Virus record (IMG/VR): IMGVR_UViG_3300020577_008743
Location: 1-64,000 of that record
Source of the DNA: a virus
Lineage: Duplodnaviria; Caudoviricetes
Direction: 5' to 3' (one strand)
Length of the DNA: 64,000 bases
Shown: positions 28,257 to 55,600 of the stretch, piece by piece
Layout: each line of letters starts with the position of its first letter
Position numbering within the stretch: the stretch's first letter is position 1
Notes under the pieces: generated by a model
What the model was told of the DNA's origin: nothing
Seen by the model: the letters and a program-made list of their open reading frames with translations, nothing else
Database searches by the model: none
Position numbers and translations under genes: made by a program

Positions 28257-28332
28257 GGGGCCATAGCTCAGTTGGGAGAGCGGGTGCTTTGCAAGCATCA
28301 GGTCGTCGGTTCGATCCCGTCTGGCTCCACCA
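28257..28332 (+). tRNA. tRNA-Ala(UGC)
   Basis: G3.U70, TGC, CCA. Confidence 0.93.
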
Positions 28333-28561
28333 AATTCTAACCGGATTGATCATGAAATTGACAGTTCAGTTCTTGAAGCTAAGAGCCAGGCATCATCTCT
28401 TGAAGTATCGTGATCTAACCGAAGGCTTGTCGTGCGGCAGAACACTGGCGGAAGAAATACGTCCGCAAGCCCACTTGCACAAGTTGAAATTCAATATGAT
28501 CATGAACAGGTTAGGAAGCATGGATCCTTCCTGTCCTGCAGCAAGGCTGTAAAACAGTTTC

Positions 28562-33631: not shown

Positions 33632-34969
33632 ATGGCAATGAATGAATCTCTGAAAAGAGCTTGGGTGTATGCTCTGAGAAGTGGTGAGTACAGACAAATC
33701 AAAGGCAGACTATCGTATGCCGGCGGCTACTGCGCTTTAGGCGTGCTTGAAAAGCTTGCCTCCAACCGGACGGGGCAACCGTTTACCTCCCAAATCGGAA
33801 CCCTGTCTCTCTCAACCGCCAAGCTTGCTGGAATCGGATGCAACCCCGTGGTAAAAATCCCATTGGGGATGAACCTCAAGGACGTCGTTCCTGGTCAATA
33901 CGTTACCATCAGCACGTTGAATGACAACGCTGGTGCCACATTTGAACAAATCGCTGGAATCATCGAAACACAACTGTAAGGAGTTAAAATGGCCACCAGA
34001 AAAACCATTCTCAAGCCTTATCTTTCGGAATTTGAATATCTCAAGGCCAAAGCCAGCCCGAAAGACATCTGTGATGCTCGTGGTGTCTCCCCATTCTCGG
34101 TGTCCATTTTTAGCGGGGCTGATTACTCCGCAAAGATTGGTGTGGTTTGGGCGAAAGGCAGTGAAGTAGCTATCTATAGTGCCGGGGGTGATCTGGTCTG
34201 GGGTACTTCCTCCAGGCGTACCATTTACCTAAAAGGGAAAGTTCCTTTATATTCTGGTATCTACAGCAGCAGAGATACCCTCACCAAGAGAGTGACCAAA
34301 GTTCCAGTCACTGACATCAGCTACGACGAAGTTACTCGCATTGAAAGATTCCCCTCCTTTCAGGCTTGGATCACTGGGCCGGTAGCAGCCTAATCATGGA
34401 AAAGACCTTAAAAATCAAGGACTTAACAGAGCAGGAAATAAACCTCTATATTGCAACGTTAGTCTTGAAATATCCCGAACAGGGTTACAAGGTCTTTATC
34501 AGTGAAAACACGGGGAAGTGTGTAGCACGAAAATCAACCGGAAACGCCCCGTGTGAATACGAGGAAAGAAGCTGTGACTTTGCGGCACTGTGGGATCCTC
34601 TAAAGGTCATATTTGCCGACGTTCCGCAGCTCATTCCTGAAAATCTGGTTGAAAGTTTGAGGTACGTTCTAACGCTGCGTTACGGGGAAACAATTGATAT
34701 CTCTTGATTTTGCAAACCTTGTCGAAAAAGTGGGAAACCCAGAAGTCAGCAGACCATGGAAAGACCACAGATTGAAGATTGATGCAGAATACGTAGGAAT
34801 CCCAAATATGGAACTTGCCGAACTCATGGCTTTCTGTTTGAAGCACATGAAAGAGATACAAGAAGGGCTGGAGCTACGAGACAAACTCCGTCCTACCAAT
34901 TGCGCACTGTTGGACAGGGCTACTCTTTTGTATAAGAAGTCAACCTCAGTTCCGCAAGCTGTGCTATAA
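33632..34969 (+). other. four hypothetical genes (33632-33979, 33989-34393, 34396-34707, 34694-34969)
   Basis: ORF track. Confidence 0.55.
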
Positions 34970-37500: not shown

Positions 37501-37666
37501 AAAGGAATGAAGTCGTAAGTTTGGCTAACGCACATTGCGCAACTCACAGCTGACATTGGGTCTGATAACCCTGAGGGTTATCTTGCAAGGCCCACAAACG
37601 CACAACGCAAAACGCCAAACAAACGCACATAACTTCCTGGAGTAGAAAACCGCCGAAAACATCGCC

Positions 37667-37780
37667 TTGGAGTTTCAAACGAAATCGTGTCGGGGGTTCG
37701 AGCCCCTCCGCCGCTTCAAATTGCATACTAACGTGTGTAATTCGGAGCGGTGTAACTCAGTGGTAGAGTACGGTTTCCAA
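37667..37780 (+). ncRNA. circularly permuted tRNA-like domain within the 37500-37900 non-coding region
   Basis: T arm, then CGCCGCT, hairpin linker, AGCGGTG, D arm; closed by GAAATCGT/ACGGTTTC. Confidence 0.8.
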
Positions 37781-37949: not shown

Positions 37950-38515
37950 GAAGGTAAAGTAACTGCTGTACTAAAAAAAAGCAAAGTGGGTGTAACATCC
38001 ACACGTTTCTTTCAGTCCTAACAACTTGTGTCGTTCGCCTTTGGGCTCACTGGCCCCCTAACGGGTGCCCCACAAGTTGCCAGCTCTGATGAGCTGGGCC
38101 TCAGGATCCAACGACTGGGTCCCCGGGGACTGGATGTCTTCTTGCACACCCGGTGCATTTTGGATGCTGAGCAAGATGGGCAACGCAATTGCCCGCCGGC
38201 TCAGTGAGATCTGCAGACATCGTCACCTGGTGTTGTTCTGGATCCCGAAGGTCGAGTTTACCTACATTAGCAACAGAAGTAGAAACAAAATGAATTCAAG
38301 AATTGAGGCTCTGGGAACAACATTGCGCCGCCTGAATGTCGGAACAAGGTCTTCCCCCCTGTGAGTTCGGCATTCCGCAATTTGGCGTCCTCCCGCCGAG
38401 TTGCATACCAATGCCCAGAGCCTCAACCTTACAAACGAAGAGCGTAAGCTCATGAATACGCCATCAACGAAGCTGACCACTTCGTTTCAAGCCCGGTCGT
38501 TCTTCGTTTGTTTTA
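37950..38515 (+). ncRNA. putative large structured RNA
   Basis: follows CGGTATAAG at 37936; 13-bp and 14-bp helices plus nested hairpins; no convincing ORF. Confidence 0.55.
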
Positions 38516-38523
38516 GCCACAAT

Positions 38524-38661
38524 TAGGACCGCAGAATTACGATTATCTATAATAGCTGACATGCTGCAGGTTCGAGTCCTGCCTGGCCCACCATCTATGG
38601 GTCCAGTGGCGAAATGGTATACGCATCAGCCCTAAACCAGTCGTATTCATAATTTGTCCTA
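38524..38661 (+). ncRNA. Y RNA-like 1 (YrlA type, tRNA-like domain)
   Basis: TAGGAC-CG..TTTGTCCTA stem, TTATC, T arm-acceptor-D arm order. Confidence 0.85.
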
Positions 38662-38670
38662 TTCTTCAAC

Positions 38671-38729
38671 GGGGGCGAAGTAGAAACTTATGAAGTTCGC
38701 AGCTTCTATTTTTCGATACGCTTCCACCA
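38671..38729 (+). ncRNA. 59-nt alanine-acceptor minihelix-like RNA
   Basis: GGGGGCG/CGCTTCC-A-CCA with G3.U70. Confidence 0.6.
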
Positions 38730-38734
38730 ACAAA

Positions 38735-39061
38735 ATGTCTCACACAACCGAGTTGTACTTCGAGTCACATATCACTATTGAGCCCGTGTTCGATGAAAGA
38801 CTGGAACAGTTCAAGGGAATATGTGCTTCGGAGGGTTTCAAGGCAGCAGAGCTGCTGATGAAAAAACGTTCGGGTGATACCGCTGAACGTTCGCAGTACG
38901 ATACCTTTTGCACTAGTAGAGATCTTATTTATGATAAAATCCAGACTAGAACATTAACCTTGGTCGAAAAGTTGCAGTCTTCCGGGTTTGACGTCTGGAG
39001 ATATAAGATTGAGAATACCTTGTTGGATGTTAGACTTAAATTAGAGTCTAAAATCCAGTAG
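38735..39061 (+). CDS. hypothetical protein inside the Y RNA cluster
   Basis: YFESHITI..WRYKIE. Confidence 0.65.
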   Translation: MSHTTELYFESHITIEPVFDERLEQFKGICASEGFKAAELLMKKRSGDTAERSQYDTFCTSRDLIYDKIQTRTLTLVEKLQSSGFDVWRYKIENTLLDVRLKLESKIQ

Positions 39062-39162
39062 GGCAAAAGATTCGATTGTTGTTTATATTACTAAATATAT
39101 TGAGTCTGTAAAAGCTGTTTGCAGTAGAATCAAGAAACATTCGTAGTACTAGAAGCATCCTC

Positions 39163-39324: not shown

Positions 39325-39453
39325 TTGAGCCGCTGTTAAATTCCGTTATCTTCCTTAGAAATAGGAAGTTGCGGGTTCGAATCCCGTCGCCAGCTTATAT
39401 CTGGCGTAGTTTAATTGGTAAAACTAAAACCGGAACTACACTAATTCGCTCAA
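39325..39453 (+). ncRNA. Y RNA-like 4 (tRNA-like domain)
   Basis: TTGAGC-CG..TTCGCTCAA, TTATC, GGTTCGAATCC, CGCCAG/CTGGCG, TAGTTTAATTGGTAAAAC; TGTGGTACAAT just upstream. Confidence 0.85.
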
Positions 39454-41750: not shown

Positions 41751-41881
41751 TTGGACCGAAGTTATTCAGTTATCGCTCCCAATGCGCCAGATCGGTTAAG
41801 TCCAGCACCCGTTGATTCATGGGTCGTAGTGTATAGAAGCACGGCGCATATTTTCAATTGATTAACGTTCACTTTGTCCAA
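41751..41881 (+). ncRNA. Y RNA-like 8 (degenerate tRNA-like domain)
   Basis: TTGGAC-CGAA..CTTTGTCCAA, TTATC, TGCGCC/GGCGCA enclosing T-, acceptor- and D-like hairpins. Confidence 0.8.
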
Positions 41882-41921
41882 CTCTGTTTTTACCCGTAGT
41901 AAACCAACCTGGAGAACCGAA

Positions 41922-43598
41922 ATGTCTGCAAAGAATCTTGTGAATCACCTCGTTCCGGGCCGCTATGCTTCCATTCCTGCGAAGCGTACTCCCGCCGCCC
42001 CGAAGGTGACCAAATCCACCAACCCGAACGCTGGCCTGCCGCCAGTGTCCACTTCTGCGTATCAGAAAACCGCCGCCGGCCAAGTTCAAAACTCGTCCGG
42101 AGCCTATGTTGGCAAATTGGATGTGTGGGCTCATCTGAATCGGTTTCTCATTCTCGGCACTTCCGGCTCGTCCTACTACGCCTCAGAGCGCAAGATGACC
42201 GTTGACATGGCCAAGGCCGTGGAAGCTGCAGTGAAATACAACGGCATTTCCACCGTCGATCTGATCGTGGAAATCAGCCAAGCCGGTGCCGCTCCAAAGA
42301 ATGATCCGGCCTTGCTGGCTCTGGCCATCTGCGTCGCCAAGGGGGATGATTCCACCAAGGCCTACGCAATGAACCAGCTGCCGAAGGTAGCCAGAATTTC
42401 GACTCACCTGTTCGATTTTCTGACCTACGTTCAGGCCATGAGAGGCTGGGGAAGAACCCTGAAAGAAGGTGTTGCCAACTGGTATACTTCCAAGGATCTG
42501 AACCCCTTAGCCATGCAGATGACGAAGTATCGTCAAAGAAATGGCTGGACTCACCGCGACGTTCTGAGACTGGCTCACCCGAAGCCCACCTCCGAGTCCA
42601 TGAACAATCTGTTCAAGTGGGCCATCAAAGGTCCAGAAGCACTGGAAAGAGGTGCGGAAATCCCTGAACAAGTCATCGGCTTCGAGAAGGCAAAGACCGC
42701 AGGTTCCGGTACTCTGGTCAAACTGATTCAGGATTACCGCCTGACCTGGGAGATGATTCCGACTGAGATGCTGAATGATGCCAACGTGTTTCACGCTCTA
42801 GTCATGAGCATGAATCTCGAGGCCATGATTCGCAATCTGCCGCGCATCACCAATCTCAACTTGTTGCTTACTCGGGAAGTCAGGGACCGTATTCTGAGTC
42901 TTCTGAGAAACGCAGAGGAGATCAAGGCCAAGCGGTACCATCCCCTCAAGGCTCTGGTGGCTAGAAAGACCTACGCCAGTGGCCGAGGTCTGAAGGGTAG
43001 CATGACCTGGGTACCCAACGCCGAGGTTGCCAGGGCCCTGGAAGACACGTTCTATCTGGGGTTCGATGCAGTGGAACCCACAGGCAAAAGACTTCTGTTG
43101 GGTATCGACGTCTCCGGCTCCATGACCATGGGCCAAGTAGGGGGCATGCCCCTTGCTCCGTACGAAGCTGTTGCCGCAATGGCAATGGTTACGGCACGTT
43201 GCGAACCTCTGGCAGAAATCCTCGGCTTTTCGTACAACCTGCAAGACCTTGGTATCAAGAACACCGATACTCTGGCCCAGGTTCTGAAGAAAGTGCAATT
43301 GGCTCGATTTGGAAGTACGAATCCCGGAGCACTAATTCAGTACGCAGCCAAGAAAGGCAATGTGGAAGGCCTGGTCGTCTACACCGACAACGAAGTGAAC
43401 CAAGGTTCCAGCGTTGCGGCAGAGATGAAGAAATATCGCACCAAGGCTTCTGTGGCCAGAGCAACGATGACTGTAGTCGGAATGACGGTCAACAATTTCA
43501 CCCTAGCCGACCCCAAAGATCCAGACATGCTCGACATTGTTGGATTCGATACCGCTGCTCCAGCAGTGATGTCCGAGTTCATCAAGGGCACTTTCTGA
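41922..43598 (+). CDS. rsr: Ro60/Rsr TROVE-vWA RNA-binding protein
   Basis: RFLILG, KYRQRNGWTHRDVLRLAHP, AMIRNL, IDVSGSM, YTDNE, MLDIVGFD. Confidence 0.95.
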   Translation: MSAKNLVNHLVPGRYASIPAKRTPAAPKVTKSTNPNAGLPPVSTSAYQKTAAGQVQNSSGAYVGKLDVWAHLNRFLILGTSGSSYYASERKMTVDMAKAVEAAVKYNGISTVDLIVEISQAGAAPKNDPALLALAICVAKGDDSTKAYAMNQLPKVARISTHLFDFLTYVQAMRGWGRTLKEGVANWYTSKDLNPLAMQMTKYRQRNGWTHRDVLRLAHPKPTSESMNNLFKWAIKGPEALERGAEIPEQVIGFEKAKTAGSGTLVKLIQDYRLTWEMIPTEMLNDANVFHALVMSMNLEAMIRNLPRITNLNLLLTREVRDRILSLLRNAEEIKAKRYHPLKALVARKTYASGRGLKGSMTWVPNAEVARALEDTFYLGFDAVEPTGKRLLLGIDVSGSMTMGQVGGMPLAPYEAVAAMAMVTARCEPLAEILGFSYNLQDLGIKNTDTLAQVLKKVQLARFGSTNPGALIQYAAKKGNVEGLVVYTDNEVNQGSSVAAEMKKYRTKASVARATMTVVGMTVNNFTLADPKDPDMLDIVGFDTAAPAVMSEFIKGTF

Positions 43599-52648: not shown

Positions 52649-55600
52649 GTCAGTATTCCTGTAACTTTAACGGAGGCTGCAACGTAGCCTTGTAGAGGGA
52701 TATCAGCCTGTGGGGCAATGTACTTAAGCAACGTTGCAAACCCGTTAGCAAAACTGATTCTGTAGCCGGTATCCATCTGAACTAAAAACAACTCATACCA
52801 CAAATTTCCAGGTCCGTATCCTTGTAGATCGTAGGGTTTGATTCGTATGGAAACCAAAGAATTATCATAGTCCATCTCAATGGAACTGTCAAGGCTGGAA
52901 TACGTTTTGATAAGGGTGTCACTACCTTTTTCAGGCCTTACGTACAGAGTGGCTACGTAGTTGGATATATCCATCGGGAGATTGGTGGAAGAGTCTCTCC
53001 ACTCAAACTCTATTGTCTTGTCCGATATCGGTGAGACGTTGAAGTTATAGAATATTGTCATCTTATCACGCTATTACGGTACTTTCTTGGTGGATACTAC
53101 GACCCTATCCACTCCTCCAGCCGAAGAGTTGGTTTTCTGAACCGTCTTGGACTTGATGTCTATGTTGGCAGCGGAAATACCTTTGTCCAACGGGGTTTGA
53201 GAGCCAAAGACCTTATCTTTGACATCTTCGTTGTAAATCCACACTCCGTTGTAGTACATGGCCGAACCAAGGAGTTCTGCAGCCACAAGAAGTTGTAACT
53301 GACGGGCAGTAAGATTGCTCTCGAGAATCTCGTCCCAGACTCCGGCTGCAATTTCAGAAACCGTAGGAAAGGTCGAAGAGCCCGAACCAGAGCCGGAGCC
53401 ATCCCCGGTAATAACAGTAGCTGCTGCGCTTGAAAGAACCAGGACCTGAGGACTTCCGGTATTTATGATTCTGTTCAAAGCGTCGGACAGGTTCCCCCCC
53501 GTGACTGTAGCCTGGTATGATCCCGCTGCGAACTTTAGCTTCCACTGGTTTCTAAGGCTGGCAGTAATACCAGTAAAGACTGAGCTGCCGAGGTCGTCTT
53601 TCCCCACGGCAGCAAGAATGGAAGGTTCAACTATTCCTCTTTCGCTAGCCTCTTCTTGTCTTATGGTGTTGACTAAAGTCTGAACAGTAAGCGGCTGTGC
53701 GTCGGCTTGAGGAACGTTGATGAAGCTCGACGCATAGTCGAAAGTAATAGTCAAAAGACACCTATATCAATTAGGTAGCTACTGGGTCAACTGTTCTGAT
53801 AGCGGAGAAGGAAACATCGGAACTTCCAACTGCGCCAGAGTTCTCGAACGGAAGAATTGAATTCCCTGCTCCAGTGGCGTACTTACGTACTCTATACACA
53901 ACGTTGAATCCTGTCAAGTATGTAATGGGTTGGGCAGTGACAGAAGTGCTGGCAGCCGCTTGATCCACCAAGGGAACGTAACAATAATCCGTGGATGAGT
54001 ATGTAGCCGCCAAGGTTCCGCTGAGAGTGAAGACTCCTGTTGCCTTGTTTAGAGCGGTGTAAGTATACCCTACATCCGCCAGTCTGATAACCCCCGTGCT
54101 GGCTATATCAGTGGGCACTGCTCCTGTCATAGCGGTGCTGGAAACAGTTTGAGAAATAGAGACTGAATATGTACCCGTGCTTCCGGTGCTTCCCGTAAGC
54201 TGAGCAGTAATCAAGGTTCCTGTAGTTACTCCAGTCCCGGTAACCATGGATCCGTAGGCAAGGGTTCCGGAACCCACAGCACTTACGGTCATTGTCGTGC
54301 CTGAAATGCTTGCGGTAAAGGTAGAAGTAGTATCTACCGTAACTGTTCCTGCGCCACTTGTTGCAGTCTTGATCTTGAATTGATTTCTGTTGATAACCAA
54401 GCTGCCAGAGCCGGTTGATCTTGCAACCAGTACTCTGTCTCCACTTACAACTCCGGTAACAGACACGGTTACCGAGAGAGGAGGAGTACGAGTGTTACCC
54501 GCGTTGTCAATCAGTACTCTGTTGTTTGAATCAGAAACATTGGTGATAAGAACGCCTCTCGCACCAAAGATCTTACCACCAGCAAACGTGCCGAAGGGAG
54601 ATTGTTTCGTTTCTGCGTAAGTATTTGAATAATAACGATAAAACTTACCGTCTCTAGTCGTCGGAGGAGAACCTGCAGCCCTTGCTCCCGCAGTTGCGTA
54701 CTTCAAGTACTTGTAAACTTGGAGACAAGTAAGGCCGGCTCCGTTTACAGTAATATCATAGTTTTCGTTGTTGCCATCGCCGTCAATGTCTGCTGCGTAC
54801 GGGCCGGCATATGAAATGGTAACAGCACCATAGCTACCCCCGGTTCCATCATCGTTAGTATCGACTGAGGTAGCCAGCGGAACAGGGTTTCTACCCCCGG
54901 TTGCCGTAGCAGTTGCGGAGAAGTTATCGTACAGGTTACCCAAGTCTCGAACATAGGCAGTAATTGCCTTTGCGGTGCCATCGGTGGAAATGTCAGAGCC
55001 AGCTACAGTTACTTTGACTAACTGATCTACGTGACCACTGGCGTAGCCCGGAGGGGCAGAGAGTGCCAAACTGTTTTGGTACAGGTATACAACCCCGCCA
55101 GCAACCAAAGTGCCGATGGTATAGAAGTTGGCCCAAATATCCTCTCCAGAAGCTTGGGAGGGTCCCGTTCCTGCTCCGGTTCCTCCGGTGGTGGAAATGT
55201 TGCCTGAAAAAGTTTGAGCAGAACCTGGAGTTCTTACCCATATTTTCTTCGCGGTATTGTCGTAAGCAAGTAAAGTTCCAGTACCAGTCGTAGCTCCAAC
55301 GATGGTTTTGCCAATGTCCCCGGCAACCCAAGAGGCGGAAACGGTAGTTAAGGTAATTTGATAAATAGCGGTACTAGTGGCATAAGTTGTGGCATCCCAA
55401 CCTATGGTCCTTACAGAGCCGCCGGTGAGATATCCATAACTAGTGTCGTCAATCATCCACCCGTTGATGAGAGCATATTCTGTCGGGGTCGAGGCCGACA
55501 TTGGAACTGGGTCATCCATCTGAGTTGCGTTATCAAACTCATTCATGATCTCGGAATACAAAGCGTTTACCGTTATACGACTAGACCCAGTATTATGCTT

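What the first reader, a model, noticed from the sequence alone, without database searches (positions are those of the whole stretch)
38671..38729. 59-nt hairpin RNA carrying the full alanine identity set
Seen: GGGGGCG pairs with CGCTTCC followed by A-CCA, giving G1-C72, G2-C71, G3.U70 and A73. An inner AGTAGAA/TTCTATT helix and a residual TTCGATA are present. It lies 10 nt after Y RNA 1. Known: G3.U70 minihelices are AlaRS substrates, and tmRNAs start similarly. Inference: a natural minihelix or extremely reduced tmRNA-like domain (alanine donor, SmpB/EF-Tu decoy, or Ro60 substrate).
Basis: partly seen in the sequence, partly recalled or inferred. Interest (0 to 1): 0.7.

Follow-up and report, generated by a model that had tools for sequence, protein, structure and literature searches.

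The report
Phage acceptor-stem hairpin with CCA tail
A small conserved RNA hairpin that copies only the amino-acid-accepting tip of a tRNA sits between a Y RNA gene and a protein gene in a Ro60-encoding phage; it is most likely a cutting mark for tRNA-processing enzymes, and because a related phage has lost its alanine signature, it is probably not an alanine carrier.

Summary
The hairpin is real. At 38671-38729 a 7-bp stem (G1-C72, G2-C71, G3.U70, G4.U69, G5-C68, C6-G67, G7-C66) is followed by ACCA. It is non-coding and lies on the + strand, 9 nt after the end of Y RNA 1 and 5 nt before an ORF.

By numbers alone the alanine-type pattern is not above chance (0.31 expected per genome). Conservation makes it a real element:
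- A close syntenic relative (L028) keeps 58 of 59 bases where the region differs by about 8%.
- A distant one (L029, Ro60 68% identical) has, in the same slot, a 52-nt stem-loop ending in ACCA (chance about 0.006). Its stem is kept by one double and two single changes.

The L029 ortholog has U3-A70, so the alanine mark is not conserved. There is no T arm, and no tRNA, tmRNA or YrlA model matches, although the tmRNA model finds the DS6A 'TLD-only' tmRNA as a positive control. The phage record has no SmpB.

Best reading (about 0.4): a tRNA-acceptor mimic that serves as an RNase P-type punctuation site. Alanine charging or decoy roles remain possible but unsupported.

The scan has noted similar alanine-type minihelices in other phages. 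None shares this sequence.

The parts
38524..38661 (+). Y RNA 1 (YrlA-like: terminal stem UAGGAC/GUCCUA, permuted T arm, looped acceptor, D arm), the upstream neighbour
   Evidence: Weak full-length Rfam YrlA match at 38536-38650 (20.7 bits, E 0.28). The L029 ortholog has compensatory stem changes. A metatranscriptome contig ends exactly at 38661, the last paired base of the terminal stem.
38662..38670 (+). 9-nt pyrimidine-rich spacer (UUCUUCAAC); it would be the 5' leader removed if RNase P cuts before G38671
   Evidence: Read directly from the sequence. The spacer is 9 nt in L028 and 10 nt in L029.
38671..38677 (+). 5' strand of the acceptor-like stem (GGGGGCG)
   Evidence: pair probabilities 0.986-1.0.
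38678..38718 (+). Interior of the hairpin: irregular rod (GAAA/UUUC, UA/UA, GAAGUU/AGCUUC, CGC triloop). It contains the UUCGAU motif shared with L029.
   Evidence: There is one substitution against L028, at 38679. MAFFT aligns the UUCGAU of the window with that of L029.
38719..38725 (+). 3' strand of the acceptor-like stem (CGCUUCC), giving G3.U70 and G4.U69
38726..38729 (+). Single-stranded ACCA (discriminator A73 plus encoded CCA)
   Evidence: It is conserved as ACCA in L028 and L029. At least 15 of the phage's 17 tRNA genes also encode NCCA after a 7-bp stem.
38735..39061 (+). Downstream ORF (108 aa, unknown function). The true start is at 38735, so the hairpin is not coding.
   Evidence: Homologs start at M-x-x-HTTELYFE. 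In L028 the upstream ATG inside the hairpin is out of frame.

Best explanation
The hairpin is a tRNA-acceptor-arm mimic used as a processing ('punctuation') site in a transcript that carries Y RNA 1, the hairpin and the downstream ORF.

Proposed mechanism:
- Host RNase P recognises the 6-7-bp terminal helix with G at +1 and the single-stranded ACCA, and cuts between C38670 and G38671.
- The 9-nt trailer left on Y RNA 1 is then trimmed back to the blunt end of its Ro60-binding stem at 38661.
- The hairpin either stays as a base-paired 5' cap on the ORF mRNA, or is released as a 59-nt CCA-ended by-product.

What is shown and what is inferred:
- Shown: the structure, strand, non-coding status, conserved position, conserved stem plus ACCA, and loss of G3.U70 in a relative.
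- Weak hint: a processed Y RNA 1 end at 38661.
- Inferred: cleavage by RNase P, and the fate of the hairpin.
For: 1. The features kept between the window/L028 and the distant ortholog L029 are those a bacterial RNase P hairpin substrate needs: a terminal helix, G+1 and a 3' ACCA.
   - All scorable stem cells pair (100%), with one double and two single changes. Slid controls pair at 53-79%.
   - A stem of at least 6 bp plus ACCA in that 74-nt slot has chance about 0.006.
   - The interior and the alanine mark are not kept.
2. The slot is fixed: 9-10 nt after the Y RNA 1 stem and 3-11 nt before the ORF start in all three phages.
3. No terminator or promoter separates Y RNA 1 from the hairpin. 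Yet an RNA-library contig ends exactly at the blunt end of the Y stem (38661, plus one extra A). If that is an RNA end, it must be made by processing.
4. The phage writes its real tRNA genes the same way, with encoded NCCA and 5-9-nt spacers between neighbours.
5. Precedents:
   - M. smegmatis YrlA, with a 7-bp acceptor-like stem, is cut by RNase P and receives CCA (PMC4201824).
   - Non-tRNA RNase P substrates depend on a 3' RCCA motif (PMC12710915 abstract).
6. The hairpin is better conserved than its surroundings: 1 difference in 59 nt against about 8% in the region, and 5 differences in the next 10 nt.
Against: - No cleavage or discrete transcript has been observed.
- The other Y RNAs of the same array follow each other without such hairpins, so the hairpin is not generally required to make Y RNA ends.
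- A second CCA-ended stem (38023-38082) is bridged intact by an RNA contig, so stem plus NCCA is not automatically a cut site.
- There is no T-loop at the canonical 12-bp distance.
- A mere processing signal would not need the near-perfect interior conservation seen against L028, although that relative is close.
- With three sequences the covariation has no statistical power: 169 of 500 shuffles score as high.
Confidence: 0.4

Rival explanations
1. It is a free-standing, working acceptor-arm mimic. Once released with mature ends, it is charged with alanine by host AlaRS, or it soaks up a tRNA-end-binding factor such as an aaRS, EF-Tu, the CCA enzyme or a tRNA-targeting defence nuclease.
For: - G1-C72, G2-C71, G3.U70, A73 and an encoded CCA are present in the window and L028.
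- Minihelices with G3.U70 are AlaRS substrates (Francklyn and Schimmel 1989, as cited in PMC9976931).
- The interior is almost unchanged against L028.
- The scan has noted alanine-type minihelices in several other phages (unchecked notes, not the same sequence).
Against: - G3.U70 is U3-A70 in the L029 ortholog.
- G4-C69 is replaced by G4.U69 and there is no G20.
- There is no T arm for EF-Tu-type binding.
- The alanine-type pattern is expected 0.31 times per genome by chance.
- No transcript evidence.
Confidence: 0.15
2. It is an extremely reduced tmRNA tRNA-like domain, in the manner of the DS6A TLD-only tmRNA, acting as an SmpB or trans-translation decoy.
For: - Alanine-type acceptor end with ACCA.
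- The order 'acceptor 5' strand, inner helix, 3' element, acceptor 3' strand' can be read as tmRNA-like.
- The DS6A TLD-only tmRNA exists, and a similar molecule inhibits tmRNA (PMC4131195).
Against: - No T arm and no D-loop analogue.
- No Rfam tmRNA match at E<=10 on 91 nt, while the DS6A TLD scores 43.2 bits, E 6.6e-14.
- ARAGORN tmRNA mode is negative.
- No SmpB in the record.
- G3.U70 is lost in L029.
Confidence: 0.05
3. It is a 5'-UTR structure of the downstream ORF that controls translation or protects the mRNA 5' end, with no role for tRNA enzymes. The ACCA is incidental A/C-rich leader sequence.
For: - It always sits 3-11 nt before the ORF start.
- The leader is A-rich and has no Shine-Dalgarno sequence.
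Against: - Homologs of the ORF in more than 25 other phage contexts have no such hairpin.
- The exact ACCA directly after the stem is kept in L029 while neighbouring bases changed (chance 0.006).
- A stable stem 3-5 nt from the AUG would hinder ribosome loading rather than help it.
Confidence: 0.15
4. It is a decaying remnant of a tRNA- or tmRNA-like gene in a tRNA-rich island, tolerated but without a function of its own. Alternatively it is a chance hairpin.
For: - UUCGAU (T-loop-like) and GCU-CCACCA resemble the 3' end of the phage's own tRNA-Ala at 28257-28332.
- The interior differs completely between the window and L029.
- The L029 stem looks like a different (Tyr-type) acceptor (own knowledge).
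- The chance expectation of the alanine pattern is 0.31 per genome.
Against: - The stem plus ACCA persists at Ro60 68% identity, with compensatory changes.
- There is 1 difference in 59 nt against L028, compared with about 8% locally.
- z = -2.6.
Confidence: 0.2

Closest known systems
Synthetic minihelix-Ala / microhelix-Ala substrates of AlaRS (Francklyn and Schimmel 1989; cited in PMC9976931)
   Same: Hairpin with a 7-bp acceptor helix, G3.U70, A73 and a single-stranded ACCA, and no anticodon.
   Different: - This one is natural and genome-encoded.
- The helix is closed by a 41-nt irregular rod, not a T arm.
- 4:69 is G.U.
- The G3.U70 pair is not kept in the ortholog L029.
- Charging has not been tested.
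TLD-only ('CDS-less') tmRNA of mycobacteriophage DS6A (PMC4131195; located here at JN698994:28478-28560)
   Same: Phage-encoded, anticodon-less RNA with an alanine-type acceptor end.
   Different: - DS6A keeps the D-loop analogue, the P2 helix and a canonical T arm, and scores 43 bits on Rfam tmRNA.
- The window hairpin has none of these and scores nothing.
- DS6A does not encode CCA; this one does.
Acceptor-like stem of Mycobacterium smegmatis YrlA, cut by RNase P and given CCA (PMC4201824)
   Same: A 7-bp acceptor mimic in a Ro60/Y RNA locus that tRNA-processing enzymes can read.
   Different: There the stem is part of the Y RNA's tRNA-like domain, with T and D arms. Here it is a separate hairpin downstream of the Y RNA, with CCA already encoded.
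Hairpin and other non-tRNA substrates of bacterial RNase P that depend on a 3' RCCA (PMC12710915 abstract). Analogies from own knowledge: MALAT1/mascRNA 3'-end formation, the small stable RNAs of the T4 tRNA cluster, and phage P1/P7 C4 RNA.
   Same: A helix plus RCCA is enough to direct cleavage, and the cut defines the end of a neighbouring RNA.
   Different: Cleavage has not been shown here. The neighbour is a Y RNA, and the downstream partner is an mRNA start only 3-11 nt away.

Membership tests
tmRNA tRNA-like domain / TLD-only tmRNA | 7-bp acceptor stem with G3.U70, discriminator A and CCA end | tested here: met
   Met in the window and L028. Not kept in the ortholog L029, which has U3-A70.
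tmRNA tRNA-like domain / TLD-only tmRNA | Canonical T arm (5-bp stem, 7-nt T loop) joined to the 3' acceptor strand, plus a D-loop analogue | tested here: not met
   Folds show no hairpin next to the 3' strand. UUCGAUA is half paired with GAAA and has no stem of its own.
tmRNA tRNA-like domain / TLD-only tmRNA | Match to tmRNA covariance models or ARAGORN tmRNA | tested here: not met
   No tmRNA-clan hit overlaps the hairpin at E<=10 in the 2-kb search, and none at all appears in the 91-nt search. ARAGORN -m is negative. Positive control: the DS6A TLD-only tmRNA scores 43.2 bits, E 6.6e-14.
tmRNA tRNA-like domain / TLD-only tmRNA | Binds SmpB | not testable with these tools
   No SmpB gene in the 97-kb record, which is estimated 63% complete. 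The host is unknown.
tRNA (including reduced or armless tRNA-Ala) | Cloverleaf or reduced cloverleaf with an anticodon arm, recognised by tRNA models | tested here: not met
   No Rfam tRNA hit. ARAGORN standard, metazoan-mitochondrial and mammalian-mitochondrial modes are negative for the window, L028 and L029. A UUCGCAG loop with CGC (Ala) can be drawn on a 4-bp stem, but it is absent in L029.
Bacterial alanine identity set (A73, G2-C71, G3.U70, G4-C69, G20; PMC9976931) | All five determinants present | tested here: inconclusive
   A73, G2-C71 and G3.U70 are present. G4-C69 is replaced by G4.U69. G20 is absent because there is no D loop. Whether AlaRS accepts tandem G.U pairs was not testable.
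Natural AlaRS minihelix substrate | G3.U70 conserved among orthologs; RNA made with mature 5' G1 and 3' CCA; aminoacylated | tested here: not met
   Conservation fails in L029. Mature ends and charging are not testable here. RNA contigs did not cover the hairpin, which is not evidence either way.
Bacterial RNase P hairpin-type substrate | Acceptor-like helix of about 7 bp, G at +1, single-stranded 3' RCCA | tested here: met
   The window and L028 have 7 bp plus ACCA; L029 has 6 bp plus ACCA. G is at +1 in all, and -1 is C, C and U respectively.
Bacterial RNase P hairpin-type substrate | Cleavage at -1/+1 by RNase P | not testable with these tools
   Only an indirect hint: the Y RNA 1 3' end at 38661 implies downstream processing.
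YrlA / Y RNA | Ro60-binding terminal stem plus tRNA-like module; match to Rfam YrlA | tested here: not met
   YrlA hits lie at 37688-37769, 38536-38650 and 39366-39425, not on the hairpin.

The most novel reading that the evidence does not exclude
The hairpin is released as a stable 59-nt RNA that host AlaRS charges with alanine. That would make it a natural, phage-encoded, anticodon-less alanine minihelix working alongside the Ro60/Y RNA system, for example as a tRNA-end decoy or a protected 3' end. The L029 version would then have switched to another (Tyr-like) acceptor identity.
Probability: 0.1. Interest if true: 0.8.

Novelty: new variant of a known kind. Interest (0 to 1): 0.38.

Why it matters
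If the processing reading holds, it shows a phage using a bare acceptor-stem mimic to separate a Y RNA from an mRNA. That extends the 'tRNA punctuation' logic (mitochondria, MALAT1/mascRNA, T4 tRNA clusters) to Ro60/Y RNA loci, and it gives a handle on how bacterial and phage Y RNA 3' ends are made.

If instead the RNA is charged, it would be a natural counterpart of the classic synthetic alanine minihelix.

This case also carries a caution for the other 'alanine minihelix' calls of this scan. A G3.U70 acceptor pattern is expected about 0.3 times per 100-kb phage genome by chance, and here it is not conserved in the ortholog.

Tried and rejected
- **Exact and gapped DNA patterns of the hairpin in IMG/VR.** No homolog was found. 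The 23 gapped hits fit chance expectation (about 40 by my estimate). The three inspected were part of a tRNA-Arg (L014), coding sequence (L017), or without any tRNA or Rfam call (L007).
- **blastn of 38300-39100 against the phage collection.** No match.
- **Ro60-based searches.**
  - IMG/VR gave none.
  - Metagenome contigs gave 21 loci at 47% identity or less. These show no enrichment of G-start CCA hairpins (15 on the + strand, 16 on the - strand).
  - The protein database gave only L029's Ro60 (68%) and one 60% hit on a 3-kb contig.
- **DUF7873 neighbour.** No relatives in the protein search.
- **ORF homologs.** Only P0002 (L028) and P0003 (L029) are syntenic. All others lie in coding-dense, unrelated contexts without a hairpin.
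- **Y RNA D-arm pattern in IMG/VR.** It hit ordinary tRNAs; 5 permuted Y-like cases showed no CCA hairpin.
- **Laying public runs.**
  - DNA contigs covering the hairpin in two of the three DNA runs laid (X3, X5) are identical across it, so they give no covariation.
  - The one RNA library (contigs only) did not cover the hairpin. This says nothing about expression.
- **Coding reading.** The ATG at 38690 as an ORF start is rejected, because the frame is broken in L028 and homologs start later.
- **Terminator reading.** Rejected: no U run follows the stem.
- **RtcB and CCA-adding enzyme.** Absent from the record.

Full report
**Setting.**
- The window is the first 64 kb of a 97.5-kb IMG/VR virus record, about 63% complete.
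- It carries 17 tRNA genes and a TROVE/vWA Ro60 gene at 41874-43598.
- Upstream of Ro60 lies an island of non-coding RNAs. Weak but recognisable Rfam YrlA (Y RNA-like) matches are at 37688-37769, 38536-38650 and 39366-39425.
- The finding lies inside this island.

**The observation.**
- At 38671-38729 the + strand reads GGGGGCG, 41 nt, CGCUUCC, ACCA.
- The terminal stem forms with probability above 0.98 for every pair: G1-C72, G2-C71, G3.U70, G4.U69, G5-C68, C6-G67, G7-C66. ACCA is left single-stranded.
- MFE is -17.8 kcal/mol, z = -2.6.
- The two G.U pairs, and one in the ortholog, would be A.C mismatches on the other strand. The RNA is therefore on the + strand.
The predicted interior is an irregular rod ending in a CGC triloop, and half of the 'TTCGATA' stretch is paired.
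- The bacterial alanine set is A73, G2-C71, G3.U70, G4-C69 and G20 (PMC9976931). Here 4:69 is G.U and G20 cannot exist, so 'full set' is too strong.

**Is it more than chance?**
- Not from the pattern alone. Seven-bp stems followed by NCCA occur about 85 times per strand by chance.
- The alanine-type version is expected 0.31 times per genome in Markov simulations.
- It is seen three times: the real tRNA-Ala, this hairpin, and one antisense to a 630-aa ORF.
- What sets the hairpin apart is its context and its conservation.

**It is not coding.**
- An ATG at 38690 opens a frame through the hairpin.
- Homologs of the downstream protein begin at M-x-x-HTTELYFE.
- In the close relative L028 that ATG is out of frame.
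- The ORF therefore starts at 38735, 5 nt after the CCA.

**Relatives.**
- The adjacent ORF has many homologs, but only two lie in the same DUF7873 - ncRNA island - ORF - Ro60 synteny:
  - L028: ORF 95% identical, Ro60 92%.
  - L029: ORF 76% identical, Ro60 68%.
- L028 keeps the hairpin with 58 of 59 bases identical. The only change is A9 to G. The surrounding 840 nt differ by about 8%, and the 10 nt after the CCA carry 5 differences.
- L029 has, in the same slot, a 52-nt element: GGUGGC, two small hairpins, GUCACC, ACCA. It lies 10 nt after the orthologous Y RNA 1 stem and 11 nt before the ORF. MFE is -15.9 kcal/mol.
- A stem of at least 6 bp followed by ACCA in that 74-nt spacer has a chance of about 0.006.
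- Pair by pair, the stem is kept by one double change (G.U to U-A at 3:70) and two single changes. 100% of scorable cells pair, against 53-79% for slid controls.
- With three sequences this has no statistical power: 169 of 500 shuffles score as high.
- The interiors are unalignable except for a shared UUCGAU.
- What selection keeps is therefore a terminal helix, G+1 and ACCA. It does not keep G3.U70.

**Tests against known families.**
- No tRNA, tmRNA or YrlA model matches the hairpin, even in a 91-nt search at E<=10.
- ARAGORN finds nothing in standard, mitochondrial-armless or tmRNA modes.
- Positive control: the same Rfam library finds the 'TLD-only' tmRNA of mycobacteriophage DS6A at JN698994:28478-28560, with 43.2 bits and E 6.6e-14. 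That RNA has an acceptor stem, D-loop analogue, P2 helix and T arm (PMC4131195).
- The window hairpin lacks all of these but the acceptor stem.
- The record has no SmpB, RtcB or CCA-adding enzyme.

**Expression.**
- Public runs holding this DNA come from sludge, wastewater and river samples.
- The three DNA runs laid show no sequence change in the hairpin; contigs of two of them (X3, X5) cover it whole and X6 only in part.
- The single RNA library, available as contigs only, does not cover the hairpin. This is not informative.
- One RNA contig joins 38661, one extra A, and 37524.
  - 38661 is exactly the last paired base of the Y RNA 1 terminal stem (38524-38529 with 38656-38661).
  - 37524 lies just after a GTCGTAAG motif resembling the promoter-like GGTATAAG noted elsewhere in this genome.
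- I read this joint as a chimera that marks a 3' end of Y RNA 1 and a 5' end of another RNA. This is a weak hint, and DNA contamination is not excluded.
- No terminator lies between Y RNA 1 and the hairpin. Such an end would therefore have to be made by cutting downstream and trimming.

**Mechanism.**
- The best-supported reading is a tRNA-acceptor mimic that serves as an RNase P-type punctuation site. RNase P would cut before G38671, and exonucleases would trim the 9-nt trailer back to the Ro60-protected Y stem.
- The hairpin would then either cap the 5' end of the ORF mRNA or be released as a CCA-ended by-product.
- Precedents:
  - M. smegmatis YrlA, with a 7-bp acceptor-like stem, is cut by RNase P and gets CCA (PMC4201824).
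  - Non-tRNA RNase P substrates depend on a 3' RCCA (PMC12710915).
- The phage's own tRNA genes use the same grammar of encoded NCCA and short spacers.
- Weaknesses:
  - The other Y RNAs of the array are separated without such hairpins.
  - A second CCA-ended stem (38023-38082) is bridged intact by an RNA contig.
  - Cleavage is entirely inferred.
- I give this reading about 0.4.

**Rivals.**
- Chargeable or decoy minihelix: 0.15.
- ORF 5'-UTR element: 0.15.
- Non-functional remnant or chance: 0.2.
- Reduced tmRNA domain: 0.05.

**Relation to earlier scan notes.**
- The scan has flagged alanine-type minihelices in other phages. One was read as punctuating a tRNA array, and others as TLD-only tmRNAs.
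- None shares sequence with this one. Those notes are unchecked and were used only as leads, including the DS6A paper.

**Verdict.** This is a real, conserved, tRNA-end-like hairpin in a new setting, between a phage Y RNA and an mRNA. The alanine and tmRNA interpretations are weakened, and the function is unproven.

Noticed in passing
window 38616-38661 joined to 37524-37667: A 191-nt contig from a sludge metatranscriptome joins position 38661 (the blunt end of the Y RNA 1 stem), one extra A, and 37524 (just after a GTCGTAAG promoter-like motif). It could be a template-switch chimera marking two RNA termini, an RNA-RNA ligation product, or a DNA rearrangement.
   Followed up: partly
window 37975-38223: An RNA-library contig covers this stretch and ends at 38223 with a non-templated A-rich tail (AAAAACAAA). 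That is the kind of heteropolymeric tail that poly(A) polymerase or PNPase adds, which is notable in a Ro60/Y RNA locus.
   Followed up: no
window 38023-38082; L028 5284-5355: A second CCA-ended stem-loop (8-bp stem AACUUGUG/CACAAGUU followed by GCCA) lies inside a longer ncRNA. It is kept in L028 despite a 12-nt internal insertion, and an RNA contig bridges it intact.
   Followed up: partly
window 34184-34286: A 103-nt stretch starts GGGGGUGAUCUGG and ends UACCCUC-ACCA. It has a 7-bp terminal stem with G2.U71 and folds at -35 kcal/mol. It overlaps only weak ORFs and may be another tRNA- or tmRNA-end-like RNA.
   Followed up: no
L029 5939-5990: The orthologous element begins GGUGG and ends CACC-ACCA. 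This resembles the acceptor stem of E. coli tRNA-Tyr (own knowledge). It also has a T-arm-like hairpin (UAGUA, UUCGAUUGG, UACUA) attached to the 5' strand instead of the 3' strand.
   Followed up: partly
window 38735-39061: The downstream 108-aa protein belongs to a widespread phage family with no Pfam domain. Invariant residues include Y-x-E-x-H-x-T-x-E-P and W-R-x-K-x-E. In other phages it sits beside DNA polymerase, endonuclease VII and dNMP kinase genes.
   Followed up: partly
JN698994 (mycobacteriophage DS6A) 28478-28560 = L086 28478-28560: The TLD-only tmRNA named in the literature is not annotated in the GenBank record. Rfam tmRNA locates it between gp33 and gp34, just under the gathering score (43.2 against 47 bits).
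   Followed up: yes
L095, L130, L158, L172, L189 (IMG/VR contigs): Five AT-rich phage contigs carry a permuted 'T arm, then loop, then Leu-type D arm' arrangement like Y RNA 1. These may be YrlA-like RNAs in unrelated phages. No CCA hairpin follows them.
   Followed up: no
window 53927-53970: A 44-nt stretch also shows GGG...UCC-ACCA with a 7-bp stem. It lies antisense inside a 630-aa ORF and has several G.U pairs, so it is taken as the expected chance hit.
   Followed up: yes
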